Shown here piece after piece: positions 1,954 to 56,929 of a stretch of DNA of 64,000 bases (the first letter of the stretch is position 1; every line of letters starts with the position of its first letter). Both the position numbers and the translations under genes were made by a program. This stretch comes from Escherichia phage vB_Eco_mar003J3. The stretch lies in the sequence record NC_048203.1; one strand, written 5' to 3'. Below the pieces are notes generated by a model that made no database searches, was not told the origin of the DNA, and saw only the letters and a program-made list of their open reading frames with translations.

Positions 1954-2038
1954 TAGTTGAAGTCTTGATGCTATGAAAACGACAGTACATAAATTTACGT
2001 AGTGCTTTCTTAATAGCTTTCATTTTATTTCCTTAATT

Positions 2039-2115
2039 TGGTAGGGGTGGTGGGATTCGAACCCACAAAACCTGAATTTTAAGTCCAGTACCTATGCCAA
2101 TTCGATTACACCCCC
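2039..2115 (-). tRNA. tRNA, anticodon TAA (Leu-type) in a short-variable-arm scaffold
   Basis: 77 nt; acceptor GGGGGTG/CACCCCT, discriminator A, CCA, anticodon stem CTGGA/TTCAG with loop CTTAAAA, T-arm GTGGG-TTCGAAT-CCCAC; D stem weak. Confidence 0.55.
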
Positions 2116-2124
2116 ATGTAATCT

Positions 2125-2472
2125 TTAGAGTTCGTAACCCTGAATATATCGAGCAAAACCAGTAATCTCGAACTGAATTGCCCATGCTACTTCCATATGC
2201 TCAATCTTACTAAAATGAGCGTCAGACTGTTCTAGGAAATAACGAGAGATTATAGGGAACTCAATGTCAAAATCTTCCTTATCCATACCATAGAAGAAGT
2301 TTCCAGAAATATTACGAACTTCACGAAAGAAATCCTCAATCTGAAAATCCATCAGAGGATAAGTATATTCCTCTTTGCTATCATCCGTTTGGAAGAAGCG
2401 GAAATGCACAAGGCAAGAGCCAATCAGATTTACTGCTGGAGTAGTGTAAATATCCATGTTAACCTCGATCAA
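2125..2472 (-). CDS. hypothetical protein (115 aa)
   Basis: ORF, acidic. Confidence 0.45.
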   Translation of the reverse strand: MIEVNMDIYTTPAVNLIGSCLVHFRFFQTDDSKEEYTYPLMDFQIEDFFREVRNISGNFFYGMDKEDFDIEFPIISRYFLEQSDAHFSKIEHMEVAWAIQFEITGFARYIQGYEL

Positions 2473-2644
2473 TATCTAGAGAAATTCCAAATTCTGGATT
2501 AATACCAGAACCATTACATGCTGCGCATTCCCACTCTTCAAAACGCATATCGCCAGGTTCAGCATCATTAATAGTACCTGTTCCTTGGCAGTGAGTACAC
2601 ATGCACTCTTCTAGTTCTTGTTTAAGCTCTTGAAACTTAGACAT
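2459..2644 (-). CDS. small zinc-ribbon protein (DnaJ-type CxxCxGxG repeats)
   Basis: 61 aa; CTHCQGTG and CAACNGSG motifs. Confidence 0.5.
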   Translation of the reverse strand: MSKFQELKQELEECMCTHCQGTGTINDAEPGDMRFEEWECAACNGSGINPEFGISLDIDRG

Positions 2645-2661
2645 ATAGTCTCCTAGTTAAT

Positions 2662-2739
2662 TGGTGGCTCCCGGAGGATTCGAACCTACCTACCTTTCGC
2701 TTATGAGGCGACGGCTCATACCAAATGAGCTTGAGAACC
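2662..2739 (-). tRNA. tRNA, anticodon CAT (Met or Ile-lysidine)
   Basis: Acceptor GGTTCTC/GGGAGCC with two G-U pairs, D stem GCTC/GAGC, anticodon loop CTCATAA, TTCGAAT T-loop, CCA. Confidence 0.55.
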
Positions 2740-2744
2740 AAATT

Positions 2745-2833
2745 TGGAGGAAGAAGTGGGAATCGAACCCACAAGGCTATGTTTCAAACCGACAGATTAG
2801 CAATCTGCTGCAATACCGTTATGCTATTCTTCC
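2745..2833 (-). tRNA. tRNA-Ser (anticodon GCT), class II
   Basis: 89 nt; acceptor GGAAGAA/TTCTTCC perfect, anticodon stem GCAGA/TCTGT with loop TTGCTAA, long variable arm, T-arm GTGGG-TTCGATT-CCCAC, CCA. Confidence 0.7.
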
Positions 2834-3343
2834 TTAATTATTTCGGGCATATTCCCCATGAAGTTTCTCTCTCAGTTGAATTAGAGCTTCATTTGCTGCT
2901 TCAGGAGTACTGTGCAGCCCTGCGGAGTATGACTTACCTTTAAACATTATTCTACCCTGCCACTGACCAGATGCTTTGTGGTAGGATACTCCCTTAAATC
3001 CGCTAGTATTCCTAGAAGATTTACTAGCATTATGAGTATTAGTGGTACTATCCGCTGCTCTTAAATTTAAAGGATGTATGTTTAACTTATTGCAGTCTTT
3101 ATGATCAATCATTTCCGGCCTATACCCATAATATAGTATAAATACTATGATATGAGCTAAGTAATCTTGGTGATCAACGTTAACTCTGATATACCCAGAG
3201 CTTTTGTGCAAAGATCCCGCAGGTTTATTGGCAAACTTAGTATTAAATATCTTCTCCTCTCTGGAGTTTCCGGAGAGCGGATTCCACACCAGTACACCAT
3301 CTTCTAAACGGAATCTATAAAGTATAGACTCATAGTCTAGCAT
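2834..3343 (-). CDS. HNH homing endonuclease
   Basis: 169 aa; IDHKDCNKLNIHPLNLRAA HNH core; C-terminal SGFKGVSYHK...W.GRI AP2-like region. Confidence 0.75.
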   Translation of the reverse strand: MLDYESILYRFRLEDGVLVWNPLSGNSREEKIFNTKFANKPAGSLHKSSGYIRVNVDHQDYLAHIIVFILYYGYRPEMIDHKDCNKLNIHPLNLRAADSTTNTHNASKSSRNTSGFKGVSYHKASGQWQGRIMFKGKSYSAGLHSTPEAANEALIQLREKLHGEYARNN

Positions 3344-3376
3344 AAATAGTTCCTAATCTTCCAAATTTATGAATAT

Positions 3377-3405
3377 ATTATACAGAAAATTTCGGCATTA
3401 AGCAA
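3377..3405 (-). promoter_or_regulatory. T5-type early promoter (-35 TTGCTT, 17 bp, -10 TATAAT)
   Basis: Minus-strand reading; part of a roughly 60-bp cassette repeated through the early region. Confidence 0.6.
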
Positions 3406-3413
3406 GTGAAATT

Positions 3414-3710
3414 TTACTGAACATTGCACTGATATACCTGTTTGATACGTGTCACTGACTTCTTAGTTGGGTTGATAGAAGAACCCTGCCACCAACGTGA
3501 CTCTGAGCTAAGAATAGCACCAGGAACAGCCTGCTCTTTTGGCAGAACAATATCAAAACACTGTTCACCCATATTATCTTTAATGTGTGACCAAATATCC
3601 AAAGTAAATCGTTCTAACTTATTACAAACCTGAACTTGACAAAGTTCCTGTTGCGGAGCAGCAAATACAGAAGTAGATACTAGAGTCAGTGCAAGTACAA
3701 TGCGTTTCAT
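3414..3710 (-). CDS. secreted small protein with N-terminal signal peptide
   Basis: 98 aa; MKRIVLALTLVSTSVFA-AP signal-peptidase-I-type leader; several Cys. Confidence 0.55.
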   Translation of the reverse strand: MKRIVLALTLVSTSVFAAPQQELCQVQVCNKLERFTLDIWSHIKDNMGEQCFDIVLPKEQAVPGAILSSESRWWQGSSINPTKKSVTRIKQVYQCNVQ

Positions 3711-3740
3711 GTTTGATTCCTCTCTCGAATTTATAAATAT

Positions 3741-3769
3741 ATTATATAGAAATTTTCTATATTAAGCAA
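3741..3769 (-). promoter_or_regulatory. T5-type early promoter (TTGCTT, 17 bp, TATAAT)
   Basis: Minus-strand reading. Confidence 0.6.
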
Positions 3770-3786
3770 GTGAAAATTTCTGTATA

Positions 3787-3809
3787 ATAGCCCTCGCTTA
3801 GAGGGCTAT
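3787..3809 (-). terminator. hairpin ATAGCCCTC-gctta-GAGGGCTAT just after pnuC stop
   Basis: Perfect 9-bp stem; flanking U-rich run is weak. Confidence 0.4.
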
Positions 3810-3816
3810 AACTACT

Positions 3817-4509
3817 TTATTTGTTAACGCGTACAAAGTATCCTTTATAGGCTCCCATAATAGAGTTACCTAAGAATACTAGCCACATTGCTAGGATTGC
3901 ATAAGATGCACCTGTAGATTGAGTAGTTACAAGCCAAATGTACACAGTACCAATGTTAATAGCAATCCAGATCAGCCACTGCTCGGCATACTGCTTAACC
4001 ATAAGCCACATAGCGATCACACTACCTACCGCAGTAAATGCATCCAACATTGGGAATGGATCAGCCGTAGTAGCTAAGAAACTACCATACCCTAACGTGG
4101 CTACTGCTAGAATCCCTAGAGTCAGCAGAGCTTGGACTTTAGTCAGAATCTTAGTTGGAACATCTGGCAGATTACTTGGCTTATTTTTATGCCATAAGTA
4201 CATTCCATAAAACTGCATAGGAACGTAGTATAGCAGGTTTAGTGCAGCGTTACCATAAAGATCTGCGTTTAAAGCTGTAATACCATAGGTAAGAACACCA
4301 ACTAAGCCCCAAATATAGTTAGAAACACGTCCTTTAGCAACCAAAATAACACAAACTACGTTGGTTATCGCAGTAGCCCAATCTAGAGGTGTACCATTAT
4401 AGTTAGCTAAACTAATGAAGGCAACCGCTATGAACAGCCACAGATATTCCAGAGGTTTCCAGTTTTTAAAGTCATTTACGAGATAGTTAGTCATATTAAA
4501 ACTCTCCAA
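3817..4509 (-). CDS. pnuC: PnuC-family nicotinamide riboside / NMN transporter
   Basis: 230 aa polytopic membrane protein; matches recalled E. coli PnuC in the YGxYxW and PFPxLD...WLxWIxINI regions; 14-nt overlap with upstream nadR-like gene. Confidence 0.85.
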   Translation of the reverse strand: MESFNMTNYLVNDFKNWKPLEYLWLFIAVAFISLANYNGTPLDWATAITNVVCVILVAKGRVSNYIWGLVGVLTYGITALNADLYGNAALNLLYYVPMQFYGMYLWHKNKPSNLPDVPTKILTKVQALLTLGILAVATLGYGSFLATTADPFPMLDAFTAVGSVIAMWLMVKQYAEQWLIWIAINIGTVYIWLVTTQSTGASYAILAMWLVFLGNSIMGAYKGYFVRVNK

Positions 4510-5551
4510 CGTTAAAGTGATGAATCAGCCAGTCTACTGCGTTTACTGCTTCGTCCATACGAACTTTGTAGTCCGGGGAGTCGATGTACACAGTACGCCC
4601 TTCAGGGAACTGATTTGGAAATTCTTTCTTCATCTGCTCGAACAGTTCAGAAGTAATTGAACGATCGGAGTTAATACGTAAACCATCATCTACCCACTTG
4701 ACAGTGGGCGCTAGAACAATTACTAAATCGTAATGTTCTTCTTTTGCAATTGCTGTAACCACAGGGTTCTTACGATGTTCATAAAGTCTGTGGTAGAACT
4801 CAGTAATAAAAGCATTTGTATCCACAAACATGATCTTATTTGCAGTACGTTCTGCCTCAAACTCTAGCTCTTTGTGTCTGAACGCAATTTTACTATAATC
4901 TTCGCTGGTAAGCAGATTTTCGTTACCAACTAGATCAACTTCACAATACGTTCGACCATATTCTTCTACCCACGAAGTGTTGTATAGCTTCGCAAGGTAT
5001 TTTGTTAAAGTAGTCTTTCCTGAGCTTTCAGTCCCAATGATTACAACCCTACGCACGTAATCTTTACGAACTACGCTAGGAAGAAACTCCCAATACTTCA
5101 TAAGATCATTACGAATCATTGTAGCTGAGATTGGAACACGAGTCCGATCAGAATCTACAATATAATGACCAAACTTCGGCAGATATTTCTTATATTCTGC
5201 ATCATAGTCTAGTTCGCTAGAGAAAATGGTGATCTCAGGCAAATGTCCGTAATTTTCATTAAGGATTCTAGCATATTCCGGCCAACCATTCGGATATTCA
5301 GGAATATCATCTTCAATAGTGTACTCTACCGAAATGTGCTCAATATCCGCGTAAGTTTGTTCTAACCAACGAAGTCGATTCTTTAACTGTAATACTTCCT
5401 GATCACGTGTGTTCTGCTTATCCAACCAACGATTATCATGACTAACTACAACAATAACTCGTTCACACATAGTTGCTGCTGTGTTTATTAGGTTAATATG
5501 ACCACGCGTTAATGGTGCGAACTTACCAATTACTAGACCAGTCTTAATCAT
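4496..5551 (-). CDS. nadR: NadR-like bifunctional NMN adenylyltransferase / ribosylnicotinamide kinase, no HTH domain
   Basis: GKFAPLTRGH nucleotidyltransferase motif, then Walker A GTESSGKTT kinase domain; start moved to MIKTG (SD GAGAGGAA) because the ORF-track extension to 5602 contains the promoter. Confidence 0.85.
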   Translation of the reverse strand: MIKTGLVIGKFAPLTRGHINLINTAATMCERVIVVVSHDNRWLDKQNTRDQEVLQLKNRLRWLEQTYADIEHISVEYTIEDDIPEYPNGWPEYARILNENYGHLPEITIFSSELDYDAEYKKYLPKFGHYIVDSDRTRVPISATMIRNDLMKYWEFLPSVVRKDYVRRVVIIGTESSGKTTLTKYLAKLYNTSWVEEYGRTYCEVDLVGNENLLTSEDYSKIAFRHKELEFEAERTANKIMFVDTNAFITEFYHRLYEHRKNPVVTAIAKEEHYDLVIVLAPTVKWVDDGLRINSDRSITSELFEQMKKEFPNQFPEGRTVYIDSPDYKVRMDEAVNAVDWLIHHFNVGEF

Positions 5552-5581
5552 ATTTGATTCCTCTCTCAAATTTATAAATAT

Positions 5582-5610
5582 ATTATACAGAGAATTTAGC
5601 ATTCAAGCAA
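5582..5610 (-). promoter_or_regulatory. T5-type early promoter (TTGCTT, 17 bp, TATAAT) for nadR-pnuC
   Basis: Minus-strand reading. Confidence 0.6.
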
Positions 5611-5769
5611 TCGAATTTTTTAACTTTTTAGTGGAAAAAATCTCAAGGCATTTAGTGGTAGCACGTTGTTGCTACAATAATAGTATATGATTCTAAAGAA
5701 TTAAAGAATTAAATACTAAAGACCTTAGTTGAATAACTTATGGGCTTTTCTTTTGCCTTAAATACAGAA

Positions 5770-5800
5770 AAGCCCACGCTCTCGGAGGAAACGCGGGCTT
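5770..5800 (-). terminator. hairpin terminator after SPFH gene
   Basis: AAGCCC...GGGCTT stem followed on minus strand by UUUCUGUAUUU. Confidence 0.5.
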
Positions 5801-5823
5801 GTTTCGAAGATTACGTGTAACTA

Positions 5824-6768
5824 TTACTTATTACGCATATCCATAATCATCTGGCCATCATAACCAGTACCTACAACAGTCTGAGGAACGCCACCCTGAT
5901 ATTTTTCAGCGCGTTTCATATCAACTTCCAGCTGTTTCCAGCGAATCATCTCTGGAGTGATGGTACGCTGCAGAGCGGTGTTAGCTTCAGCTTCTTTCTT
6001 AGCTGCATACAGTTTAGCATCTGCGTCACGTTCGTTAGCTACTGCCATATTTTCACGAGCAGAACGATCAGCCTCAGCTTGCTTAACTTTCTGCTGTGCT
6101 TCTTGTTCAACACGAGCTAGTTCAGCTTTTGCAGCGTTAACTTGTTCTTCACGAACTTTGGTGTTTTGTACCTGTTCCATGATTACCGGTGGCAGAGTAA
6201 TATCCTGAAGGAATACTTGCTTAACGGTGTAGCCATAAGGACGCGCATACTCTTCTACTTCTTGCTGAATAGCGGTTTGCAGTTGAGCCTGAATCTTAGC
6301 GTCGAACAGATCTTGTGCTTTTGGTACAGACTTACCAAACTCACGAATCGTAGACAGCATCTTCTCTTCAACGTACTTGTTCAGAGCTTGATCCTGAGTA
6401 CCTGCGTTAACACGGTTCATAGGAGCTTTAGCACCATCAAACTGCAACATAACTGTAATGTCAACTGTAGACTTAAACTTATCCTGGCTAGGAACCTGAA
6501 GTTTATCCAGTTTCATAGAAATATCTTTCGTACTAAAAGTATCAAAAGAGGCGAATGGGTTGACAATATGGAACCCCGGCAATACAGGATTAGGACTAAC
6601 TTTACCCAGGAAAGTCTGAGTTTTAACCGTACCATCCTGAACAACTGTATAGGAATTGAGAGCCAGAATAAGAGCGCCAAGACCAACTACAGCACCAACA
6701 CCCCAACGTTTAATAGCACGAATTACTTTTTGATCGGAAGTCAGTTCTTTAGTGTTTTTAGTAAACAT
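5824..6768 (-). CDS. SPFH/band-7 (prohibitin/HflC-like) membrane protein
   Basis: 314 aa; N-terminal TM helix, band-7-like core, long charged coiled-coil C-terminus. Confidence 0.65.
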   Translation of the reverse strand: MFTKNTKELTSDQKVIRAIKRWGVGAVVGLGALILALNSYTVVQDGTVKTQTFLGKVSPNPVLPGFHIVNPFASFDTFSTKDISMKLDKLQVPSQDKFKSTVDITVMLQFDGAKAPMNRVNAGTQDQALNKYVEEKMLSTIREFGKSVPKAQDLFDAKIQAQLQTAIQQEVEEYARPYGYTVKQVFLQDITLPPVIMEQVQNTKVREEQVNAAKAELARVEQEAQQKVKQAEADRSARENMAVANERDADAKLYAAKKEAEANTALQRTITPEMIRWKQLEVDMKRAEKYQGGVPQTVVGTGYDGQMIMDMRNK

Positions 6769-6779
6769 ATATTTCCTTA

Positions 6780-6980
6780 TTATTTAGAAGAGTTAGCTAC
6801 TACAGTTACTTTAGTTGCAGAAATAAACAGGCTAGCATCCACAGCAAATTCAGGAGCTTTGATATCTCCGTTATGAAATATGACTATACCGGAGACTACT
6901 TCAAATGCTAGCGCTGTAACATCGGTGGTATTTACTTGTGAATGTTCACCTACTACTTTTACTATATATCGTGTTTTCAC
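6780..6980 (-). CDS. hypothetical protein (66 aa)
   Basis: ORF only. Confidence 0.4.
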   Translation of the reverse strand: MKTRYIVKVVGEHSQVNTTDVTALAFEVVSGIVIFHNGDIKAPEFAVDASLFISATKVTVVANSSK

Positions 6981-7006
6981 TTTATTTTCCTAGCAGTTAA
7001 TAAAAT

Positions 7007-7081
7007 TGGCCGAGGTGACAGGATTCGAACCTGCATAAAGGAATTTAGAAGACTCCTGCCTATCCCTTAGACTACACCCCG
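7007..7081 (-). tRNA. tRNA-Arg (anticodon TCT)
   Basis: 75 nt; acceptor CGGGGTG/CACCTCG, D stem GTCT/AGGC, anticodon stem GGAGT/ATTCC with loop CTTCTAA, T-arm GCAGG-TTCGAAT-CCTGT, CCA. Confidence 0.7.
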
Positions 7082-33954: not shown

Positions 33955-34365
33955 ATGACTACTCCAACTCAGTGGACTGATGAACTGTTCGAAAAAATGT
34001 CTTCCGACTACGTTGCTCGTATGGAGCAATTCCCAGAAGATGAGCGTCCGGGCGTTAGCATGGAAATTGTTAGCGAAATTGCTCAGGAAAATGGTGTAAC
34101 TCCGAACGGTTTCCGTATGAAGCTGACCAAAGCAGGTCTGTATATCAAGAAAGCTGCTGGCTCTACTTCTAAATCAAGCGCATCTACTGGAGAAAAAGCT
34201 TCTGGTGGTTCTCGTACTTCCAAAGCTCAGGCTCACTCCGATCTTCGCTCTGCATTCTCTGATGCTGGCTTAGCCCCGGACTTCCTGGACGACGCAATCA
34301 TCGACAAGCTGACCGGTAAAGCAGCTGCTCATCTGGCAGAAGCTATCCGAGCTATCACTAAGTAA
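33955..34365 (+). CDS. hypothetical protein (136 aa), Ser/Ala-rich linker
   Basis: SD AAGGAAA upstream. Confidence 0.5.
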   Translation: MTTPTQWTDELFEKMSSDYVARMEQFPEDERPGVSMEIVSEIAQENGVTPNGFRMKLTKAGLYIKKAAGSTSKSSASTGEKASGGSRTSKAQAHSDLRSAFSDAGLAPDFLDDAIIDKLTGKAAAHLAEAIRAITK

Positions 34366-34748: not shown

Positions 34749-35057
34749 ATGAGCGATCAGGTAAATCAAAACTATGAAGGACACGTTGACGACCAGTCCA
34801 TCATGCTTTGGGAGAAGGAGGGGGAACAAGTAAGACTAACCGTATCTGAATTTCGTGGGAATCTATACATGGGAATTCGTTACTGGCTCCAAGATATTAC
34901 TGGAGAGTGGTTTCCAACGAAATCCGGCTTCTCTTTTCCTTATACCCTAGAAACTACATCACAGCTATTCTACGCTTTTACGCAAATCCTCAGTGAATCA
35001 GAGGTCTTGCATGAAGTACAGAAACGAGCTGAAGAACTCAAAGCCAAGAATGTCTAG
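34749..35057 (+). CDS. hypothetical protein (102 aa)
   Basis: ORF followed by terminator. Confidence 0.5.
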   Translation: MSDQVNQNYEGHVDDQSIMLWEKEGEQVRLTVSEFRGNLYMGIRYWLQDITGEWFPTKSGFSFPYTLETTSQLFYAFTQILSESEVLHEVQKRAEELKAKNV

Positions 35058-35124: not shown

Positions 35125-35343
35125 TTGATGAGAGGATCAATTATGGCAATGACAATAACACTTCCAAAGATTCAAGCAAAACTTAATTTGCTCTCCATAG
35201 CAAGAATCAATTACCAGGATAGTATCGGCACTCCAAACCAGAAAGCGTACAAAGATGCGTGGTTGAAAGAAGCTGCTGATTTAGCTGGTATGGCTGCGCA
35301 GTATAGTAAAGAACTCAAAATGGAAATCGCAGATGATGAATAA
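35125..35343 (+). CDS. hypothetical protein (72 aa)
   Basis: SD GAGAGGA upstream. Confidence 0.45.
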   Translation: MMRGSIMAMTITLPKIQAKLNLLSIARINYQDSIGTPNQKAYKDAWLKEAADLAGMAAQYSKELKMEIADDE

Positions 35344-36307
35344 TGTAAAAGACTTTATTAAACGTTGTCAAGAAGCGTACTACCAGGGAATGAGTCTTAT
35401 TTCCGATGAAGAATATGATCGTCTGATTAAAAGATTCCCACTAGAGGAAGAAATCGGACCGAAAGGTGATATCCCTCATTTGTATCGTATGTATTCTTTG
35501 CAGAAAGTCTATTACGATCGTGGTGATAAAGCTCCATTCAACCCACTTGGTCAGGTTGAAACTGATAAGTTAGATGGTTGTGCGATTTCTCTATTATATA
35601 TTAATGGTGAGTTTGTTCAAGCGTTAACTCGTGGTAACGGTATTCTAGGAAATGATGTAACGCATAATGTTAAAATGCTGAACATCCCCAAAACTATTTC
35701 CCAAAAAGTACCAACTCAAATCACTGGTGAAGTTCTCATTACTAAAGAAGTAGAGAACAAACGTAACTATGCTTCTGGTGCTATTAACCTGAAAGATAGT
35801 GATGATTTCATGCAACGTATTGGTGAAGGTGGTTTAATCTTCGTTGCATATGGTATCCAGTGTTCAGCGGAAACAGTCGGTATTACAGAAGCCTATTTAA
35901 AAGATATGCTTTGGCTAGAGAATGAGAACTTCTTGACAGTTGTTAATGTTCGTTCCTTTTTTAAATGGATTCCGACGGACGGTAAAGTTGTTCGTATTAA
36001 CGACAACAATAAATTCTTCCGTGAAGGTTGGACTAATAAATTTCCTCGTGGTGCATTTGCTATTAAAGAGGATGAAGAAGGCGAAATTACCACACTTGTT
36101 AAAGTTGAATGGCAAGTAGGGGCTTCTGGTAAAGTAACTCCAGTTGGTTATTTCGAGCCGGTGATTATTGATGATGCCACAATCGTTAAAGCAACTCTTA
36201 ATAACGTTGATTATATTAACGCTCTCGATTTAGAGATCGGTTGCCAGATTCGAGTGATTCGTGCTGGTGGTGTAATCCCTTGTATAGTAGAGCGAGTATA
36301 CGACTAA
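35333..36307 (+). CDS. NAD+-dependent DNA ligase, adenylation (N-terminal) subunit
   Basis: 324 aa; LISDEEYDRL Ia-like start and KxDG adenylation motif KLDG. Confidence 0.8.
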   Translation: MMNNVKDFIKRCQEAYYQGMSLISDEEYDRLIKRFPLEEEIGPKGDIPHLYRMYSLQKVYYDRGDKAPFNPLGQVETDKLDGCAISLLYINGEFVQALTRGNGILGNDVTHNVKMLNIPKTISQKVPTQITGEVLITKEVENKRNYASGAINLKDSDDFMQRIGEGGLIFVAYGIQCSAETVGITEAYLKDMLWLENENFLTVVNVRSFFKWIPTDGKVVRINDNNKFFREGWTNKFPRGAFAIKEDEEGEITTLVKVEWQVGASGKVTPVGYFEPVIIDDATIVKATLNNVDYINALDLEIGCQIRVIRAGGVIPCIVERVYD

Positions 36308-36357
36308 TTCGTAACCCTTTGCTACCCGTTTACCATGTCGGAATTATAAAGTGGTTA

Positions 36358-36386
36358 TTGACATTTTCGCCGCTTAGGTATATACT
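36358..36386 (+). promoter_or_regulatory. sigma70 promoter (TTGACA, 17 bp, TATACT) between ligase halves
   Basis: Plus-strand reading. Confidence 0.55.
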
Positions 36387-36450
36387 ATTATCATTCAGTT
36401 GAGGGATAGAAAGTTATGGCGAGGGTAAGCAAAGTTAGTTAAAATTGTAG

Positions 36451-36479
36451 TTGCTAAATGCTTAAATACTTGTTATAAT
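36451..36479 (+). promoter_or_regulatory. T5-type promoter (TTGCTA, 17 bp, TATAAT) between ligase halves
   Basis: Plus-strand reading. Confidence 0.55.
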
Positions 36480-36506
36480 ATTTATATAAATTGATAAGGA
36501 AGAAAT

Positions 36507-37289
36507 TTGATGAAAATCGAAATTCCAACACAATGTCCCTCTTGTGGTTCTAAGCTAGATCTTGTCAACGGGCAATTATTCTGTAGGAATAAGTCCAACT
36601 GTCCAGCACAATCAAGTAAGTTAATCGAGAACTTCTGCACAAAAATGAAGTTAAAGGGCTTTGGCCCGAAAACTATTGAGAAGCTGGAACTGACCAAGAT
36701 CTCAGAACTGTTTTACCTGACCGAAGAAGATTTGGTCGGAGCTGTGGGTAGCAAGGTTGCCGCTAAGTTGATTAGCGAGTTAAATACTAAGGTTCGCGGA
36801 GACATTGACTTTGGTTCGGTTCTCGGTTCTTTAGGAATTCCTCTTATTGGAGAGGTTGCAGCAAAGAAACTGTCCCAAAATTGCACTAGCTTCCACGATG
36901 TGAAGGCTGACGGCAAGGCTGGAGAAAATTACAAAACCTGGCTAAATTCCCCACAAGGCAAGGATGTTATTGAATTACCCTGGAAATTCTCAACTGGTAT
37001 TCGAGGTACTAAAGCTGATATCATCATTACGGATGATTTAGTTGCCCAGCCAAATGGAATCACGATCTGTATTACCGGATCTTTGCAAGATTTTGCAAAT
37101 CGAACGGATGCAACAAACTATTTAGAAAGTCTAGGATATACGGTTAAGAAATCCGTTACCAAAGACGTCAAATACCTAATCTGTGAGGATGAATCAAAAC
37201 GTTCTTCCTCATCTTATAAGAAAGCCGAAACGAATGGGATAGAAATCCTGTCGATTAAAGAACTATTGGAGAAAAATAATAATGTCTAA
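36507..37289 (+). CDS. NAD+-dependent DNA ligase, C-terminal subunit (Zn-finger, HhH, BRCT-like)
   Basis: 260 aa; CPSCGSKL...C..KSNCP zinc finger, then HhH-like and BRCT-like regions. Confidence 0.7.
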   Translation: MMKIEIPTQCPSCGSKLDLVNGQLFCRNKSNCPAQSSKLIENFCTKMKLKGFGPKTIEKLELTKISELFYLTEEDLVGAVGSKVAAKLISELNTKVRGDIDFGSVLGSLGIPLIGEVAAKKLSQNCTSFHDVKADGKAGENYKTWLNSPQGKDVIELPWKFSTGIRGTKADIIITDDLVAQPNGITICITGSLQDFANRTDATNYLESLGYTVKKSVTKDVKYLICEDESKRSSSSYKKAETNGIEILSIKELLEKNNNV

Positions 37290-38049
37290 ACTGAACTGGA
37301 ACGTAGAAGGTGTAACCGAGTCTCTGAAAGCAAAAGCCACTGCTCTGGGTGTTGCTGTAATCTCTCAAGAACAAGTAGCTGCTATCGCTGCTGAACTGGC
37401 TACCGAGACTGGTAAAGACGTTACCGCTCGCTCTGTTGGCTCTAAGCTGCGTAAAGAAGGTTTCGAAGTACAGAAAGCTAACGAAGTACAGAAATCCCCG
37501 TGGACTCCTGAGCAGGAAGCTGAACTAGTTGATTTCCTGAACGCTCATGCTGGTCAGTATACTTACGCTGAAATCGCTGCTGCTGTAGCTGGTGGTCAGT
37601 TCGGTACTAAGCAGGTACAGGGTAAGATCCTGAGTCTGGAAATGACTGCTTCTGTTAAGCCAACTGAAAAAGCTGCTGCTGTTCGTTCCTTCACTCCTGA
37701 CGAAGAAACTGATTTCGTTAATCAGGTTGTTGCTGGTGCTACTATTGAAGCTATCGCTGCTCACTTCGGTCGTAATATTAAGCAGATCCGTGGTAAAGCT
37801 CTGAGCCTGCTTCGTGAAGGTCGTATCGCTGCTATGCCGGTACAGGAAACATCAAGTGCTAAGACTCGTGAAGATCTGTTAGAAGGTCTGGATCTGGCTT
37901 CCATGACTGTTGCAGAAGTTGCTGAGAAAACTGGTAAGTCTGAGCGCGGTGTTAAATCTATGCTGTCTCGTCGTGGTCTGGTTGCTAAGGACTATGATGG
38001 TGCTGCTAAGCGTGCTAAACTGGATGCAAAAGCTGCGGCTGCTGAATAA
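37282..38049 (+). CDS. hypothetical protein with four internal HTH-like repeats
   Basis: 255 aa; roughly 50-aa unit repeated four times; Ala-rich. Confidence 0.45.
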   Translation: MSKLNWNVEGVTESLKAKATALGVAVISQEQVAAIAAELATETGKDVTARSVGSKLRKEGFEVQKANEVQKSPWTPEQEAELVDFLNAHAGQYTYAEIAAAVAGGQFGTKQVQGKILSLEMTASVKPTEKAAAVRSFTPDEETDFVNQVVAGATIEAIAAHFGRNIKQIRGKALSLLREGRIAAMPVQETSSAKTREDLLEGLDLASMTVAEVAEKTGKSERGVKSMLSRRGLVAKDYDGAAKRAKLDAKAAAAE

Positions 38050-38066: not shown

Positions 38067-38100
38067 AAGGGGAGGGGGCTATGCTCCTTCCCCTTTTTGC
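38067..38100 (+). terminator. rho-independent terminator
   Basis: AAGGGGAGG...CCTTCCCCTT then TTTGCATTT. Confidence 0.6.
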
Positions 38101-38131
38101 ATTTAGAAGGCACGAAAGCGTGCAAAGGAGA

Positions 38132-39604
38132 ATGACCTTGTTTAACGTGCAAGCTGTAGTGTTGAAGATGCTTCTCGCTTCTGAACAGAAGCAAATAGCA
38201 TTGGAAACATTCTCAAAACTGCATAAAGATCATTTTAATGACGCTTTCTCCTCAATTTACCAAGCCGTCCAGAATTATTATAAGAAATATAACGCAATGC
38301 CGTCCATTGACGCACTGATGCTTGAGGCCAATAGGAACGCCCGCCTTTCTCAAGCTCTTGTCGTCTTAGCTAACACTCAAATTCCAGAAGTGAGCATGGA
38401 ACAGGCACTTGAAGTCCTAGAAGCTGAATATACACAGGATCTATTCCTGAAACTTCTAGAAACAGACGTGCTTCAAGATTTAACAATGCTGGATCAGGGA
38501 GAAATTCTCAATCGAGTTGCCTCCCTTCACTTAAAATTAGAAGAGAAAGTAACGAATACTGGAAAGGTATTCAACGCAGACACAATGCGTATTTTCCAGA
38601 GAGAAGAAGATACCAAACTGAACTTGATCGCTCTTGGTATTTGTAATGAGTTCGACGCTCAAATTGGTTTAGCTCGCACAGAAACGTTACTGCTTGGTGG
38701 TTGGCGTGGTACTGGTAAATCCATTATCTGTTCAAACATACAGGTTCAGCAATATTTGAATGGGGATATTGCTCCATACTTCTCAATTGAGATGAAAGAA
38801 CATGAAGTATTTAGACGTAATCTAGCCATGTTAGCTGGCGTATCAGCACTAGCAATGCGTAATAATACTCTAGAAGGTGCAGCTCTGTTGAGATTAGCCA
38901 GAACTAGAGCTAGGATGTTTAACGGCGGTGAAGAGCTTTTCGATAACTTCGTTAAACAGTACACAATGGCTAAGATGAGTGATTTCTACGATATGGAAAG
39001 TAAGCTAATAGAAGGGTATGAGCTACATACTCCTATGATTATTGTTTATGACCCTGAACTGTCCATTACAACAGTTGACGTAGAATTAAATAAATTAGTT
39101 GCTAGATATGGTGATAAAGTTACAGTAGCTTTACTGGACTATATTAACCAAACCCGACTTCCAGACTCTAAAACCATTGATATGTATGACTGGAAAGAAC
39201 AGATGGTTGTTAGCTCGTCTTTCAAATCTATCTGCCAGAAACATAACGTGGCTGGTGTAGCCCCTTACCAGATCGATCAAGATGGTAGAACACGTATGTC
39301 AAAGGGGATTCTTGATTCCGCAGACATGGCTGCTAATCTTAATGCTGCAAAAGCTGATAATGGTCAAGGTGCTATTATGTTTGACTTCGTTAAGACCCGT
39401 TCTTCTGATAGCGTGAAGTTTATGCCTAAAATGAACTGGGAAACCCTACGGATGGATAACACTACCAACCTAGCAATGGAAGATATATCTCAAATGGAAG
39501 CTGAGTTCGTTATCCCTATTGAGAAGGATAAGCCGGCTCAATCTAAACGTGCTAAGAAAGACAAAGCTGAAAATTCAACAGGTGAACAGGCCAGCGATAT
39601 ATGA
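38132..39604 (+). CDS. DnaB-like replicative helicase
   Basis: Start moved to MTLFNVQ (SD AAGGAG); Walker A GGWRGTGKS; RecA-like C-terminal domain. Confidence 0.65.
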   Translation: MTLFNVQAVVLKMLLASEQKQIALETFSKLHKDHFNDAFSSIYQAVQNYYKKYNAMPSIDALMLEANRNARLSQALVVLANTQIPEVSMEQALEVLEAEYTQDLFLKLLETDVLQDLTMLDQGEILNRVASLHLKLEEKVTNTGKVFNADTMRIFQREEDTKLNLIALGICNEFDAQIGLARTETLLLGGWRGTGKSIICSNIQVQQYLNGDIAPYFSIEMKEHEVFRRNLAMLAGVSALAMRNNTLEGAALLRLARTRARMFNGGEELFDNFVKQYTMAKMSDFYDMESKLIEGYELHTPMIIVYDPELSITTVDVELNKLVARYGDKVTVALLDYINQTRLPDSKTIDMYDWKEQMVVSSSFKSICQKHNVAGVAPYQIDQDGRTRMSKGILDSADMAANLNAAKADNGQGAIMFDFVKTRSSDSVKFMPKMNWETLRMDNTTNLAMEDISQMEAEFVIPIEKDKPAQSKRAKKDKAENSTGEQASDI

Positions 39605-40131
39605 TAACACAGGAACGACTAAAAGAACTGTTTGACTACTCCCCAGATACTGGGGAGTTTACTAGAAAAGTATCTAGAGGCAATCAGAAAGCTGGTAGTA
39701 TTGCGGGTACTCTAGATAGTGGATACATACGGATAAAGGTAGATAGAAAATTATACTTTGCACACCAACTAGCCTTCCTATATATGGAAGGATATATGCC
39801 AGAGGAAGTAGACCATATTAATCGAATTACTTGGGATAATAGATGGATTAATATTAGGCCATCCACCCGGCAAGAAAATAGCAGAAATAAAACAGCTAGA
39901 AGTAAATCTGGATACTTGGGAGTTTTCTGGTTTAAGCGGGATCACAAATGGCATGTAAGAGTAGTAAATTCTATGGGAGAAAAAGTTCACGGTGGGCTCT
40001 TTAATTACGCAGATCTAAAGCTTGCAGTCACTAAAGCCAATGAACTACGTCTACAATTACATGGAGAAAATGCTGTTCAAGAGATCTTTGATCCAACTAA
40101 GTATCCTTCACTGGAGGAGTTAAATTCATGA
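39601..40131 (+). CDS. HNH homing endonuclease
   Basis: 176 aa; EEVDHINRITWDNRWINIR; paralog of 16436-16948. Confidence 0.75.
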   Translation: MITQERLKELFDYSPDTGEFTRKVSRGNQKAGSIAGTLDSGYIRIKVDRKLYFAHQLAFLYMEGYMPEEVDHINRITWDNRWINIRPSTRQENSRNKTARSKSGYLGVFWFKRDHKWHVRVVNSMGEKVHGGLFNYADLKLAVTKANELRLQLHGENAVQEIFDPTKYPSLEELNS

Positions 40132-54286: not shown

Positions 54287-56929
54287 TTACTTTTGTAACA
54301 TCAGATTAACTAGTTCTTTAAGCTCTGCGACTTCTGACTTCAGCGTTTCGATTTCCGTATTCTTTCTCTGTAACTCCTGAACGACGGTTACTACATCCGC
54401 CATGACCGCGCGGTCATTTACGTTCATTATCTCAAATTCATTACCGTCATCACCAAGAGCGGTCCCCCCAAAGTAAGTATAGGTATCGTCGATATCAGCC
54501 ATTTGCTGTGCAAGAAAACCGCGCTGACGGATTTTACTTCCGTTATAGTAAAATTCCATGACACCTATTTTAGCAATCCTTTCCGCTGCGCCATCCCTTG
54601 CAGGAGCAAAGCTATTCTTAATGCGGATATCAGATCCTTGGATGGCGACGCGCCCTTCAGGGGTGTACATCCCGTTATCTGCTCGGATCGAAAAATATTT
54701 AATATCAAGACCTGTTACGTCCATCCTTGTTACAAACTGTTGTTGTGAACCTCCTGGAGATACAAGATAGTGATATATTTTTGTTGTGTTATTTTCGACT
54801 TGGCTCAGATAGTTGACGTTATCCGCGTCCGTCGACGATCTATCCGCTTTTTTTATGACCGCCGGGCCGAAAGCGCCATCACGGCCCGAAAATACGCGCC
54901 CCCGGGCTTCACTCTCACATGACATATTGCCATCAGAGTCTATCGCCAAAATAGCCTGTTTAAGTACGCCACCGATTCTGGATACTGCTGATATGCGAGT
55001 CACCACCACTGACGACCCTTTCGTCGCAGCCACGGACATCGACGCATCGGCGATATTAACGCCGTTTTCGGATAGTCGGCTAGTCAGCCACCCGCCCGCC
55101 GTAGCCCCCGCAGGTAGAACAGTCTCCTTATGTACGACCTGCAACGTGTCCTGGATATTAGGGTTAGTCACCTTTTCCAGAACCCAGCCACGCGTCGCGG
55201 CATCCATCTCGCTAACTGGATCTGCTGCTAATGGCGTGGCACCTACTGGGCGGACGTTAAGCCAAGCAGCGGCGCGGTCTGCGAGATCGCTCAAGTTATT
55301 TGCTTTCTTGAGTACATCTGAAGAAGCTGGAACTTCTAGGGCAGTTCTAGCCTCTTCTACTGTAGAAGCTCCGGTACCACCTTTATTTATCGGGATAATA
55401 TCTTCTACAGAGGCTTCTCCAAGTCCTAAAGCTGATCTTGCAGTCTCAATAGTAGAAGCTCCGGTACCACCTTTATTTATTGGGATAATATCTTCTACAG
55501 AGGCTTCTCCAAGTCCTAAAGCTGATCTTGCAGTCTCAATAGTAGAAGCACCAGTACCTCCTTTAGCTACAGGTAAAATTCCCTCAAAACTATCTGTAGA
55601 AATGGCAATATTAACAGAACCATCTGCAGAAGGTCCAATCCCATTAACCATAGTAATATACGGAATTTGTTCCTTAATAGCACCAGCGTTTTCCTCGCCT
55701 TTTGCAGCAGCACGGAATGCTTGACCCTGCATCATATCAGGTAGACGGAAAGTAGTAGTACCATTACCAGTGGAGAAATAGAGAGTTGCACCAGCTTGCC
55801 ATTGTTCCTCAGTAACCGAAGGGATTAAGCCAGCTTCAATAGCTTCCCAAGTATCTGGGTAGTCTACACGTAGAACCTCACGACCATCAGCAGGAAGAAC
55901 ACCAGGGTACCCAACGCCTGAATCCTTATCATAAGGGAACCAAGTAACTTCACCTAACCACAGAGAAGGATTACCACCAGGAAGAGTAATCTGTATGTTA
56001 CCTACATCATCTGCACGAACGTTATTAATAGAAACTATCTTTTGCTCTGCCTCTACTAACTCTAATTCTGGAGTCTCAGCAGTTCCAGCTACTTTGTACC
56101 ACCCATATTTTGAGTCAGTTTGGTTCCATACTAGGATCTTTTCACCTAGTGCGCGACTACTAACGTCAGTATCTGCTTCTTCTTTGGTCTTGTAGACTTT
56201 GATAAAGCCAGATATATCTTCTTTATCCAGTTTGCTATCTACAATCTGAGTAGCACGATCTGCCTCAGCTTTAGCACGATCTGCCTCAGTAGTAGCATCG
56301 ATAGCTTTATCGCCAGCTTCAGTAGCAGAACCAGCAGCATTAGTTTCAGAAATCTTAGCGTTTAGTTCTGATTGCTTAGCAGCAGCAGCATGCTCACCAG
56401 CAGTTGTTGCAGCAGCATCGGCTCCTTCTTTAGCAGTTTCTGCACCAGTTTGTGCAGTTTCAGCGGCTACTTGAGCTTGTTGAGCAGCAGTTTTAGCTTG
56501 TTCGGCTAGTTCTCTACTTCTTTCAGCATTTTGAGCAGCTAACTGAGCCGCATCTTTGTGTGTGCCGGCTTCTGTAGCAGATGCAGCGGATTCTTCAGCG
56601 CTAGCCTTAGATAATCCAGCTTGTCTCTCAGATTCCGTAGCAGAAGTAGCTGCTTGAGTAGCAGAAGCTTCAGAAGAATCAGCGTAAATAGCAGCTCTAT
56701 TTTCTGAGTCTCTAGCGTTAGTTTCAGATAATTTTGCTGCAATTTCAGAATCTTTTGCAGCAGCAGCTGAAGCTGCGGATGATTCCACAGCCGCAGTCAG
56801 TTCACCCGCAGTAATAGAACTGATAGAGTTACCTAAAACTACTGTATATTTAGGATACTTACTAGCAGTAGTTGTAGTATCATCTATGTTCAGAATCTGC
56901 TGTACAATAATTTTAGTTTTAAGTGCCAT
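54287..56929 (-). CDS. ltfA: L-shaped tail fibre protein LtfA-like
   Basis: 880 aa; Ala-rich coiled N-terminus, GGTGASTIETARSALGLG repeats, tail-collar-like STGNGTTTFRLPD, C-terminal chaperone-like domain. Confidence 0.75.
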   Translation of the reverse strand: MALKTKIIVQQILNIDDTTTTASKYPKYTVVLGNSISSITAGELTAAVESSAASAAAAKDSEIAAKLSETNARDSENRAAIYADSSEASATQAATSATESERQAGLSKASAEESAASATEAGTHKDAAQLAAQNAERSRELAEQAKTAAQQAQVAAETAQTGAETAKEGADAAATTAGEHAAAAKQSELNAKISETNAAGSATEAGDKAIDATTEADRAKAEADRATQIVDSKLDKEDISGFIKVYKTKEEADTDVSSRALGEKILVWNQTDSKYGWYKVAGTAETPELELVEAEQKIVSINNVRADDVGNIQITLPGGNPSLWLGEVTWFPYDKDSGVGYPGVLPADGREVLRVDYPDTWEAIEAGLIPSVTEEQWQAGATLYFSTGNGTTTFRLPDMMQGQAFRAAAKGEENAGAIKEQIPYITMVNGIGPSADGSVNIAISTDSFEGILPVAKGGTGASTIETARSALGLGEASVEDIIPINKGGTGASTIETARSALGLGEASVEDIIPINKGGTGASTVEEARTALEVPASSDVLKKANNLSDLADRAAAWLNVRPVGATPLAADPVSEMDAATRGWVLEKVTNPNIQDTLQVVHKETVLPAGATAGGWLTSRLSENGVNIADASMSVAATKGSSVVVTRISAVSRIGGVLKQAILAIDSDGNMSCESEARGRVFSGRDGAFGPAVIKKADRSSTDADNVNYLSQVENNTTKIYHYLVSPGGSQQQFVTRMDVTGLDIKYFSIRADNGMYTPEGRVAIQGSDIRIKNSFAPARDGAAERIAKIGVMEFYYNGSKIRQRGFLAQQMADIDDTYTYFGGTALGDDGNEFEIMNVNDRAVMADVVTVVQELQRKNTEIETLKSEVAELKELVNLMLQK
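55362..55541. repeat. 90-bp tandem duplication (2 copies, 1 mismatch) inside ltfA
   Basis: 55362-55451 and 55452-55541 identical except one C/T; encodes 30-aa repeat; degenerate third copy follows. Confidence 0.8.

What the first reader, a model, noticed from the sequence alone, without database searches (positions are those of the whole stretch)
37282..38049. Protein built from four internal HTH-like repeats
The 255-aa Ala-rich protein contains four copies of a roughly 50-aa unit ending in a K-Q-(V/I)-(Q/R)-GK-(I/A)-LSL pattern, and the unit also appears once in the ORF at 33955-34365. A repeated nucleic-acid-binding module between ligase and helicase could be a DNA-organising or transcription factor.
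Basis: seen in the sequence. Interest (0 to 1): 0.35.

Follow-up and report, generated by a model that had tools for sequence, protein, structure and literature searches.

The report
Phage T5 D5 multi-HTH DNA-binding protein

Summary
The window comes from a T5-like phage (99.8% identical to chee130_1/saus132). ORF 37282-38049 (+, 255 aa) is the classical T5 early protein D5 (phrog_323 "transcriptional regulator, D5-like", E=4e-70).

The repeat claim holds, with corrections.
- The exact KQ[VI][QR]GK[IA]LSL motif occurs only twice (residues 110-119 and 167-176).
- From this one sequence, only units 2 and 3 are significantly alike (z=7.5).
- Family profiles link all four units in register. P is 3e-9 for U2-U3 and 8e-5 to 7e-3 for the other pairs; reversed controls give P>=0.067.
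- An AlphaFold2 model (pLDDT 94) shows three three-helix HTH bundles, then a fourth HTH with a beta hairpin and a C-terminal helix.
- Helix 3 of every unit is the most conserved and the only basic element.

The 136-aa ORF at 33955-34365 is T5 D3. Its N-terminal domain is homologous to units 1 and 4.

Relatives carry 4 or 5 units and always lie just upstream of the DnaB helicase, primase and PolA genes.

D5 is already published as a DNA-binding protein affecting replication and late gene expression, and as an HTH-dependent trigger of a type IX retron. Verdict: already known. The explicit four-unit anatomy, the D3 paralogy and the variable unit number are small additions. Interest is low.

The parts
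37282..38049 (+). D5 gene (255 aa, 27.0 kDa, pI 6.8), with four HTH units in one chain
   Evidence: ORF. phrog_323 'transcriptional regulator, D5-like' E=4e-70 over residues 1-253. Annotated 'D5 protein' or 'putative DNA binding protein' in phages 98.8-99% identical in DNA. Mass and pI.
37294..37473 (+). Unit 1 (aa 5-64): three-helix HTH with helices 11-22, 29-43, 49-58; recognition helix ARSVGSKLRK at 37426-37455
   Evidence: AF2 model. The family profile matches an engrailed-homeodomain variant, 1y66, E=0.0017. Helix 3 has majority fraction 0.83 and net charge +4.
37498..37641 (+). Unit 2 (aa 73-120): Myb-like three-helix HTH with helices 76-88, 95-101, 109-118; recognition helix TKQVQGKILS at 37606-37635
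   Evidence: Sub-threshold Myb_DNA-binding match at residues 71-100 (17.8 bits). U2-U3 hhalign P=3e-9. Helix 3 majority fraction 0.86.
37687..37821 (+). Unit 3 (aa 136-180): three-helix HTH with helices 139-150, 155-162, 166-178; recognition helix IKQIRGKALSLLR at 37777-37815
   Evidence: HTH_23 match at residues 151-184 in the query and in 52 of 97 family members. Helix 3 net charge +4.
37894..38043 (+). Unit 4 (aa 205-254): divergent HTH with helices 210-217 and 221-231, beta hairpin 234-239, C-terminal helix 240-254; recognition helix ERGVKSMLSRR at 37942-37974
   Evidence: AF2 model. Sigma70_r4_2 match at residues 204-230, 25.1 bits against a 25.7 cut-off in the query. The same family is matched by 87 of 97 members, best E=3.8e-10.
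33955..34365 (+). D3 gene (136 aa). The N-terminal domain (aa 1-72, 33955-34170) is a single-unit paralogue of D5 units 1 and 4; the C-terminal domain is unrelated.
   Evidence: UniRef and NCBI name it 'D3 protein' or 'DNA binding protein'. phrog_1725 E=1e-49. hhalign results. It is co-conserved with D5 in marine relatives (L002 4951-5370, E=1.7e-30).
36358..36479 (+). Two sigma-70 promoter-like sites upstream of ligB: TTGACA-17-TATACT (11 of 12) at 36358-36386, and TTGCTA-17-TATAAT with a TG extension at 36451-36479
   Evidence: Consensus scan only. The count of sites is not above the shuffle expectation.
36507..37289 (+). NAD-dependent DNA ligase subunit B; its stop codon overlaps the D5 start (ATGTCTAA)
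   Evidence: BRCT and HhH matches. Sequence read directly.
38067..38105 (+). Intrinsic-terminator-like hairpin (13-bp stem, 8 G-C pairs) plus a T run, 18 nt after the D5 stop

Best explanation
The ORF encodes the D5 protein of a T5-like phage. It is made early in infection from the replication-gene cluster.

The chain is a flexible string of four small helix-turn-helix modules that arose by internal duplication. In each module, helices 1 and 2 are acidic and variable, and helix 3 is basic and strongly conserved. Helix 3 is therefore the likely DNA-contacting (recognition) helix.

The most likely mechanism is multivalent binding of double-stranded DNA. One monomer would lay its four recognition helices into successive major grooves, helped by conserved basic residues in the linkers, and many monomers would cover phage DNA.

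[quoted passage not shown] The same HTH surface is what a type IX retron detects.

Shown here: the identity as D5, the four-unit repeat, the HTH fold class, the conservation and charge pattern, the conserved position next to the replisome genes, and the paralogy with D3. Taken from the literature: DNA binding, the replication and late-gene phenotypes, the monomeric state, and retron triggering. Inferred: binding in successive grooves, the footprint, coating, and how coating drives the early-to-late switch.
For: Identity:
- DNA is 99.8% identical to T5-like phages, and 'D5 protein' is annotated at the same place in relatives 98.8-98.9% identical.
- phrog_323 E=4e-70.
- The residues mutated in T5 D5 in the retron preprint (G53, W74, V149, G232; 255 residues) match this sequence position for position.

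Repeat:
- hhalign P from 3e-9 to 6.6e-3 between units, against >=0.067 for reversed controls.
- Relatives with five units show that units have been gained. P0173 is U1-U2-U2-U3-U4, and the 283-294-aa group including P0237 also has five.

Fold:
- AF2 pLDDT 94.3 with three helices per unit. pTM is only 0.57, which fits independent domains on linkers.
- Across the family, Sigma70_r4_2 is matched by 87/97 members, HTH_23 by 52/97 and Myb by 18/97.
- All top Foldseek hits are HTH DNA-binding domains, though none is significant.
- The D5 profile also retrieves long arrays that Pfam calls Myb, HTH_23 or HTH_7.

Functional surface:
- Helix 3 of each unit has majority fraction 0.75-0.86 against 0.62 overall, and net charge +2 to +4. 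Helices 1 and 2 carry +1 to -4.
- Eleven of the 16 invariant residues (R50, K55, L56, R57, Q113, G114, K115, L117, G171, K172, L174) lie in helix 3 of units 1-3.

Context:
- The gene lies just upstream of DnaB helicase, primase and PolA, with the NAD ligase upstream, in relatives of about 50% identity and in the five-unit group. The order ligA-ligB-D5 is exact in L002-L005; in L006/L007 other genes intervene.

Literature:
- D5 is a DNA-binding protein affecting replication and late gene expression (title cited).
- D5 runs as a 26-kDa monomer, is mildly toxic in E. coli, and triggers retron-Kva2 through HTH-msdDNA binding.
- D5 is among the most abundant proteins co-purifying with phiR2-01 virions.
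Against:
- The query passes no Pfam gathering threshold. The best hit, Sigma70_r4_2, scores 25.1 bits against a 25.7 cut-off.
- Foldseek against the PDB gives no hit better than E=0.1, for either the whole chain or the U2-U3 pair.
- The protein is close to neutral overall (pI 6.8), which is unusual for a non-specific DNA coat.
- Unit 4 lacks a predicted first helix, so 'four equal repeats' overstates the symmetry.
- The D5-msdDNA interface in the preprint is an AlphaFold3 prediction, not an experimental structure.
- My recollection that D5 binds duplex DNA cooperatively and restrains T5 DNA polymerase at nicks (Rice et al. 1979; Fujimura and Roop 1983) could not be checked, because those papers are not held.
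Confidence: 0.7

Rival explanations
1. D5 is a site-specific transcription factor for the early-to-late switch. Its four HTH units read a composite operator at early or late promoters. Alternatively, unit 4, which resembles sigma-70 region 4, competes with or replaces sigma region 4 at -35 elements or on the RNA polymerase flap.
For: - Unit 4 matches Sigma70_r4_2 in 87/97 family members, and some pass the curated cut-off (P0047, 33.4 bits against 25.7).
- PHROGs files the family under transcription regulation.
- The founding paper links D5 to late gene expression.
- How T5 switches gene classes is still described as unknown (PMC7472727).
- Distant proteins fuse D5-like units to a GerE/sigma-r4-type HTH (P0302, P0319).
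Against: - No repeated operator-like DNA motif was looked for successfully. Only tandem repeats and repeats inside the gene were scanned, and neither gave anything relevant.
- D5 sits in the replication-gene block in every relative examined.
- It is abundant enough to rank among the major proteins in virion preparations, which fits a stoichiometric DNA coat better than a regulator.
- It binds an unrelated retron DNA stem-loop, which suggests loose specificity.
Confidence: 0.17
2. D5 mainly recognises DNA structure rather than plain duplex. It would bind nicks, hairpins or fork-like junctions of the naturally nicked T5 genome, and would act as a replisome accessory that shields or marks such sites.
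For: - The only described D5-DNA complex model is with a stem-loop of retron msdDNA.
- The gene lies just upstream of helicase, primase and polymerase, and in L006 it lies two genes from a T5 nicking-endonuclease homologue.
- From memory, unchecked: D5 restrains T5 DNA polymerase on nicked duplexes.
Against: - HTH modules of this type normally read the major groove of B-form duplex.
- The msdDNA stem is itself duplex.
- Nothing in the sequence points to junction or single-strand binding. There is no OB fold, and the PC4-like single-strand binder is a separate gene at 34749-35057.
Confidence: 0.08
3. The 'repeats' are not true duplications. Four unrelated short helical segments in an Ala-rich protein merely look alike.
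For: - The motif alone is only marginally unusual (57 of 2000 shuffles).
- U1-U2 and U1-U3 are not significant from the single sequence.
Against: - Profile comparisons are in register and 1-7 orders of magnitude better than the reversed controls.
- Units 1-3 have the same predicted three-helix topology, and helix 3 shows the same conservation and charge pattern in all four units.
- Natural variants have an extra copy of a unit.
Confidence: 0.03

Closest known systems
Bacteriophage T5 gene D5 product (T5.118), phrog_323 'transcriptional regulator, D5-like'
   Same: It is the same protein family and effectively the same protein. It has 255 residues, residues G53, W74, V149 and G232 match, it occupies the same position between ligase B and the DnaB-like helicase, and its DNA is 98.8-99.8% identical to T5-like phages, several of which annotate D5 here.
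   Different: Nothing of substance differs. The papers I could read speak of 'a helix-turn-helix motif' or 'conserved HTH regions'. They do not spell out four homologous units or the link to D3.
Tandem three-helix HTH DNA binders: c-Myb R2R3 and CDC5L Myb repeats, the Pax paired domain, the Tc3/Mos1 bipartite HTH, POU
   Same: Several small HTH bundles sit on flexible linkers in one chain, each with a basic third helix. Units 2 and 3 start with W/F-T-P-[DE]-[EQ]-E as Myb repeats do. These proteins appear among the top (non-significant) Foldseek hits. The D5 profile retrieves Myb and HTH_23 arrays.
   Different: No unit of the query reaches the Myb gathering score (17.8 bits against 24.4). The three regularly spaced tryptophans of Myb repeats are absent; only the first aromatic, W74 or F137, is kept. 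Structural matches are not significant (E>=0.1).
Sigma-70 region 4 (Pfam PF08281/PF04545)
   Same: Unit 4 aligns to the HTH of region 4 (profile positions 23-49) in 87 of 97 family members.
   Different: There is no sigma region 2 or 3, so D5 is not a sigma factor. The query scores just under the cut-off. The match is to a generic HTH core.
Phage phi29 protein p6, a histone-like early protein (functional analogue only)
   Same: It is an abundant early double-stranded-DNA-binding protein needed both for replication and for the early-to-late transcription switch (abstracts of PMC4974454 and PMC3100819).
   Different: No sequence or fold relationship was tested or is expected. p6 acts as a multimeric nucleoprotein scaffold, whereas D5 is reported to be a monomer of four HTH units.
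Winged-helix protein of retron-Kva2 (type IX retron)
   Same: The preprint reports that D5's HTH mimics this protein's msdDNA-binding surface, with RMSD 1.3 A.
   Different: The resemblance is at the level of one HTH module and rests on an AlphaFold3 model. I did not test it here.

Membership tests
T5 D5 protein family (phrog_323) | Full-length sequence homology to D5 of T5-like phages | tested here: met
   phrog_323 E=4e-70 over residues 1-253. 591 homologues found, the closest 98% identical. 'D5 protein' is annotated at the matching place in EscoHU1, vB_SenS-3 and vaffelhjerte.
T5 D5 protein family (phrog_323) | Position in the replication-gene block, after the NAD ligase and just upstream of the DnaB-like helicase, primase and PolA | tested here: met
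   Window ORFs. The same order is seen in EscoHU1 and in marine relatives of about 50% identity (L002-L005). The five-unit relatives L006/L007 keep the downstream genes, with other genes between ligase and D5.
T5 D5 protein family (phrog_323) | Binds double-stranded DNA; needed for replication and late gene expression | not testable with these tools
   Known only from the literature: the title of McCorquodale 1979 as cited, and the preprint read.
Helix-turn-helix superfamily (three-helix, homeodomain-like or winged) | Three-helix bundle with a helix 2-turn-helix 3 motif, helix 3 basic and conserved | tested here: met
   AF2 pLDDT 94.3 with three helices in units 1-3 and an HTH plus hairpin in unit 4. 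Helix 3 is the most conserved element and the only basic one. Numerous HTH-clan Pfam matches across 97 members.
Helix-turn-helix superfamily (three-helix, homeodomain-like or winged) | Significant structural match to a solved HTH domain | tested here: inconclusive
   The best Foldseek E-value is 0.1. The hit lists consist almost entirely of HTH DNA-binding domains, for example EutK_C at rmsd 2.3 A over 45 residues.
Myb/SANT repeat (PF00249) | Score above Pfam's gathering threshold | tested here: not met
   Query scores 17.8 bits against a 24.4 cut-off. Only 18 of 97 members match at E<=0.01.
Myb/SANT repeat (PF00249) | Three regularly spaced Trp or aromatic core residues per repeat | tested here: not met
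   Only the first aromatic is kept (W6, W74, F137). The later positions are Y95/I155 and L117/L174 in the sequence.
Sigma-70 family | Region 4 HTH | tested here: inconclusive
   Unit 4 scores 25.1 bits against a 25.7 cut-off in the query. Some homologues exceed the cut-off (33.4 bits), and 87/97 match at E<=0.01.
Sigma-70 family | Region 2 (core binding and -10 recognition) | tested here: not met
   No Sigma70_r2 match appears at E<=1. The rest of the chain is three further HTH units.

The most novel reading that the evidence does not exclude
D5 and D3 would form a family of phage 'chromatin-like' proteins built from one duplicating HTH unit: one copy in D3, four in D5, five in related phages. 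The number of units would set the DNA footprint. Together the proteins would coat phage DNA to time replication and late transcription. Because this surface is indispensable, bacterial retrons would have evolved to sense it. This could also explain why retron escape mutations mapped to both D5 and D3.
Probability: 0.3. Interest if true: 0.45.

Novelty: already known. Interest (0 to 1): 0.2.

Why it matters
D5 is one of the classic but mechanistically neglected T5 early proteins, and how T5 switches from early to late transcription is still open (PMC7472727). A clear domain map gives concrete mutagenesis targets for that question. The map comprises four HTH units with defined recognition helices, conserved linkers, a single-unit paralogue (D3) and natural five-unit variants. 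It also helps in interpreting the 2026 report that D5 triggers a type IX retron. The escape mutations G53D and G232D fall in or next to the recognition helices of units 1 and 4, which are the two units homologous to D3. None of this changes what kind of protein D5 is.

Tried and rejected
- Sequence search of the PDB with the single protein and with the family profile gave only marginal hits: Myb21 at E=0.58 and an engrailed homeodomain variant at E=0.0017.
- Foldseek of the whole model and of a separate U2-U3 model against the PDB gave nothing better than E=0.1. I therefore do not assign the units to Myb, homeodomain or GerE specifically.
- NCBIfam has no model for D5 or D3.
- PF26822 is precomputed for some D5 and D3 homologues, but it is not in the Pfam copy at hand, so I could not name it.
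- DNA-level repeats inside the gene are short and weak. The exact 12-mer GCTATCGCTGCT (A-I-A-A) occurs at 37381 and 37750, so the duplications are old.
- A tandem-repeat scan of the window found no iteron-like arrays that could serve as D5 sites. I did not run a proper motif search of intergenic regions.
- I considered an A-B-B-A classification, with units 1 and 4 D3-like and units 2 and 3 Myb-like. It is supported by D3 matching U1 and U4 best and by five-unit relatives whose last unit scores best with the U1 model. It is not clearly supported by the unit-to-unit profile P-values, where U1-U2 is as good as U1-U4. It stays tentative.
- The classical D5 papers (PMC353123 and others) and the Davison review (PMC4743489) are not held.
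Full report
**Source and identity.** The 1.8-kb stretch around the finding is 99.8% identical to the T5-like phages chee130_1 and saus132. It is 98.8-99% identical to many Salmonella and Escherichia Demerecviridae. In relatives 98.8-98.9% identical, the ORF is annotated 'D5 protein'; in a 99.0% relative it is 'putative DNA binding protein'. It lies between 'NAD-dependent DNA ligase subunit B' and 'replicative DNA helicase'. The ORF at 37282-38049 (+) encodes 255 aa and matches phrog_323 'transcriptional regulator, D5-like' over its full length with E=4e-70. A 2026 preprint describes T5 D5 as 255 residues long and reports mutations G53D, W74*, V149I and G232D. Residues 53, 74, 149 and 232 of this protein are G, W, V and G. 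This is the D5 protein.

**The observation.** The protein is Ala-rich (44/255).
- The motif alone is weak evidence. The best ungapped 10-mer self-match is 7/10 identical, and 57 of 2000 composition-preserving shuffles reach that.
- Whole-unit Smith-Waterman alignment against 1000 shuffles makes U2 (69-130) and U3 (131-190) clearly related (z=7.5, 0/1000). The other pairs are weak or null: U1-U4 z=1.8, U3-U4 z=2.1, and U1-U2 and U1-U3 not significant.

I collected homologues (591 at E<=1e-3), aligned 119 full-length members and cut the alignment into four sub-alignments. Profile-profile comparison (hhalign) gives:
- U2-U3 P=3e-9 (96% probability, 56 columns)
- U1-U2 P=9e-5 (47 columns, in register)
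- U3-U4 P=8e-5
- U1-U4 P=2.7e-4
- U1-U3 P=3.6e-4
- U2-U4 P=6.6e-3

All twelve reversed-profile controls lie at P>=0.067. The support comes at family level, and one close pair is flanked by two divergent units.

**Structure.** An AlphaFold2 model built on a 97-sequence alignment has mean pLDDT 94.3 and pTM 0.57. That is the pattern expected for well-defined domains whose mutual arrangement is not fixed.
- Unit 1: helices 11-22, 29-43, 49-58
- Unit 2: helices 76-88, 95-101, 109-118
- Unit 3: helices 139-150, 155-162, 166-178
- Unit 4: helices 210-217 and 221-231, a beta hairpin at 234-239 and a C-terminal helix at 240-254

Units 1-3 are complete three-helix bundles. Unit 4 is an HTH with a wing-like hairpin and no clear first helix. 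A separate model of U2-U3 reproduces the six helices (pLDDT 87.5).

Foldseek against the PDB gives no significant match for either model (best E about 0.1). The hit lists consist almost entirely of HTH DNA-binding domains. Many of the whole-chain hits are tandem ones: the Timeless DNA-binding domain, CDC5L Myb repeats, Tc3/Mos1, POU and PAX6. Others are sigma-A regions 3-4, the GerE-type domains of TraR/RcsB/DosR, and EutK_C at 2.3 A over 45 residues. Against predicted viral structures, the top hit is D5 of Vibrio phage X1 (E=9e-27, TM 0.73). Other phage multi-HTH proteins follow at E of 1e-6 to 1e-3.

**Fold class from sequence.** The query alone passes no Pfam gathering score. Its best hits are Sigma70_r4_2 at residues 204-230 (25.1 bits against 25.7), HTH_23 at 151-184, and Myb at 71-100 (17.8 bits against 24.4). 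Across 97 family members the matches are consistent: Sigma70_r4_2 in 87, HTH_23 in 52, HTH_32 and Sigma70_r4 in 22 each, and Myb in 18. The family profile matches a designed engrailed homeodomain through unit 1 at E=0.0017. A profile search of 1.84 billion representatives found 627 proteins at E<=1e-3. Besides D5 orthologues, these include long arrays hit 6-10 times by the D5 profile (P0292, P0305, P0308, P0312). Pfam calls the three I scanned (P0292, P0305, P0312) Myb, HTH_23 or HTH_7 arrays. The unit is thus a generic member of the three-helix HTH superfamily. Units 2 and 3 have a Myb-like start (W/F-T-P-[DE]-[EQ]-E), but the family does not meet the Myb criteria.

**Where selection acts.** In every unit, helix 3 is the most conserved element. 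Its mean majority-residue fraction is 0.83, 0.86, 0.75 and 0.82 for units 1-4, against 0.62 for the whole protein and 0.47-0.59 for most first and second helices. Helix 3 is also the only clearly basic element (+4, +2, +4, +3), while helices 1 and 2 carry +1 to -4. Eleven of the sixteen invariant residues lie in helix 3 of units 1-3: R50, K55, L56, R57, Q113, G114, K115, L117, G171, K172 and L174. This is the signature of an HTH recognition helix, four times over. The U2-U3 linker is also above average in conservation (0.66) and keeps V125, K130 and R135.

**The second ORF.** ORF 33955-34365 is the T5 D3 protein, named 'D3 protein' or 'DNA binding protein' by UniRef and NCBI and matching phrog_1725.
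- Its family profile aligns to D5 unit 1 over 61 columns (83% probability, P=8.6e-6).
- Cut in two, its N-terminal domain matches U1 (P=4e-5) and U4 (P=7e-5) better than U3 (2e-3) or U2 (1e-2).
- Its C-terminal domain matches nothing. Controls were P>=0.13 for the reversed N-domain and >=0.037 for the reversed C-domain.
- Among all six-frame ORFs of the window, D3 is the only other ORF that the unit models score below E=0.1.
- D3 is conserved together with D5 in marine relatives.

**Variation and context.** Of 268 family sequences, 167 have the architecture U1-U2-U3-U4, and most of the rest are fragments. P0173 (309 aa) has U2 duplicated (U1-U2-U2-U3-U4). A 283-294-aa group (P0237, P0260, P0246, P0279, P0306) has five units, the last scoring best with the U1 model in P0237, P0260 and P0279. 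In marine relatives of about 50% identity the gene order is ligA-ligB-D5-DnaB helicase-primase-PolA (L002-L005). The five-unit P0237 sits at the same place in a more distant phage, between dUTPase and DnaB-primase-PolA and near a T5 nicking-endonuclease homologue (L006/L007). The link to the replisome genes is therefore old and stable.

**Expression signals.** The D5 start codon overlaps the ligB stop (ATGTCTAA) and is preceded by GGAG. Two promoter-like sites lie upstream of ligB. A 13-bp G+C-rich hairpin with a T run follows the D5 stop. This suggests a ligB-D5 transcription unit. These are consensus matches only.

[quoted passage not shown] I could not read it. The preprint PMC13405049 makes four relevant points:
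- Retron-Kva2 escape mutants of T5 carry mutations in D5, D3 and D2.
- D5 expression is mildly toxic and becomes strongly toxic with the retron.
- Purified D5 runs as a 26-kDa monomer in mass photometry.
- AlphaFold3 predicts that an HTH of D5 binds the msdDNA stem-loop like the retron's own winged-helix protein.

In the T5-like Yersinia phage phiR2-01, D5 is among the most abundant proteins in virion preparations although it is not a structural protein. That fits an abundant DNA-bound protein. From memory only: D5 binds duplex DNA cooperatively and restrains T5 DNA polymerase on nicked duplex DNA (Rice et al. 1979; Fujimura and Roop 1983).

**Mechanism.** The best-supported reading is a monomeric string of four HTH modules that binds duplex DNA multivalently through four conserved basic recognition helices. 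It would cover phage DNA during the early period and so condition replication and the early-to-late switch.
- Shown here: identity, repeat, fold class, conservation pattern and synteny.
- From papers: DNA binding and the phenotypes.
- Inferred: successive-groove binding, footprint and coating.

The main rival is a site-specific late-switch regulator, possibly using the sigma-region-4-like unit 4. I cannot exclude it computationally.

**Novelty.** The protein, its DNA binding and its HTH nature are published. The small additions are the explicit four-unit anatomy, the paralogy of the D3 N-domain with units 1 and 4, the four- and five-unit variants, and the observation that escape substitutions G53D and G232D lie in or next to the recognition helices of units 1 and 4. 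Verdict: already known, with low interest.

Noticed in passing
window 38067-38140: The helicase ORF as listed starts at ATG 38081, which lies in the loop of the terminator-like hairpin after D5. A better start is ATG 38132, preceded by AGGAG (caaaggagaATGacc). The helicase is probably 17 residues shorter than the mechanical ORF, and it is also annotated from the earlier start in EscoHU1.
   Followed up: partly
window 39601-40131: A 176-aa HNH_3 endonuclease ORF (E=3e-12) sits between the helicase and the primase, overlapping both by 4 nt. In phage EscoHU1 the helicase is followed directly by the primase. It looks like a mobile homing-endonuclease insertion.
   Followed up: partly
window 35333-37289: The NAD-dependent DNA ligase is split into two genes, ligA (adenylation + OB, 35333-36307) and ligB (Zn/HhH/BRCT, 36507-37289). 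The 200-nt gap between them holds two promoter-like sites. The more distant relative L006 has an unsplit 596-aa ligase.
   Followed up: partly
window 34749-35057: A 102-aa ORF is a PC4-like protein (PF02229, E=1.5e-8; phrog_4053 'transcriptional regulator'), a likely single-stranded-DNA binder. It is conserved upstream of the ligase in marine relatives (L002 5810-6118, L005 5433-5708).
   Followed up: partly
P0302 (569 aa, L008) and P0319 (355 aa): These metagenomic proteins have an N-terminal region carrying a GerE/Sigma70_r4-type HTH (around residues 150-200), followed by two to several D5-like units. The contig is too short to give context.
   Followed up: partly
D5 residue 74 (window 37501-37503) and preprint PMC13405049: The viable retron-escape phage T5.1 is reported to carry W74* in D5, which would leave only unit 1. 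Yet D5 was defined by conditional-lethal mutants (from memory). Possible explanations are that the stop is suppressed or heterogeneous in the population, or that D5 is less essential than assumed. The second escaper has D3 mutations E30Q and G85D, both at nearly invariant D3 positions.
   Followed up: no
L006 10524-13079: In the five-unit-D5 relative, the family-A DNA polymerase is called as two genes (573 and 170 aa) separated by about 320 nt. This may be an intron or intein, or a sequencing break.
   Followed up: no
window 961-7081 (- strand): Six tRNA genes (Glu, Tyr, Leu, Met, Ser, Arg) form the usual tRNA region of T5-like phages.
   Followed up: no
window 55362-55565: A 90-bp tandem repeat, 2.3 copies at 96% identity, lies in the higher-GC stretch at 54-56 kb. 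It is probably an in-frame repeat in a late structural gene.
   Followed up: no
P0044, P0047, P0048, P0059, P0075 (D5 family) and P0165, P0167, P0171 (D3 family): PF26822 is precomputed for members of both families. This independently suggests a shared domain, but the model is absent from the Pfam copy available here, so its name and extent are unknown.
   Followed up: partly
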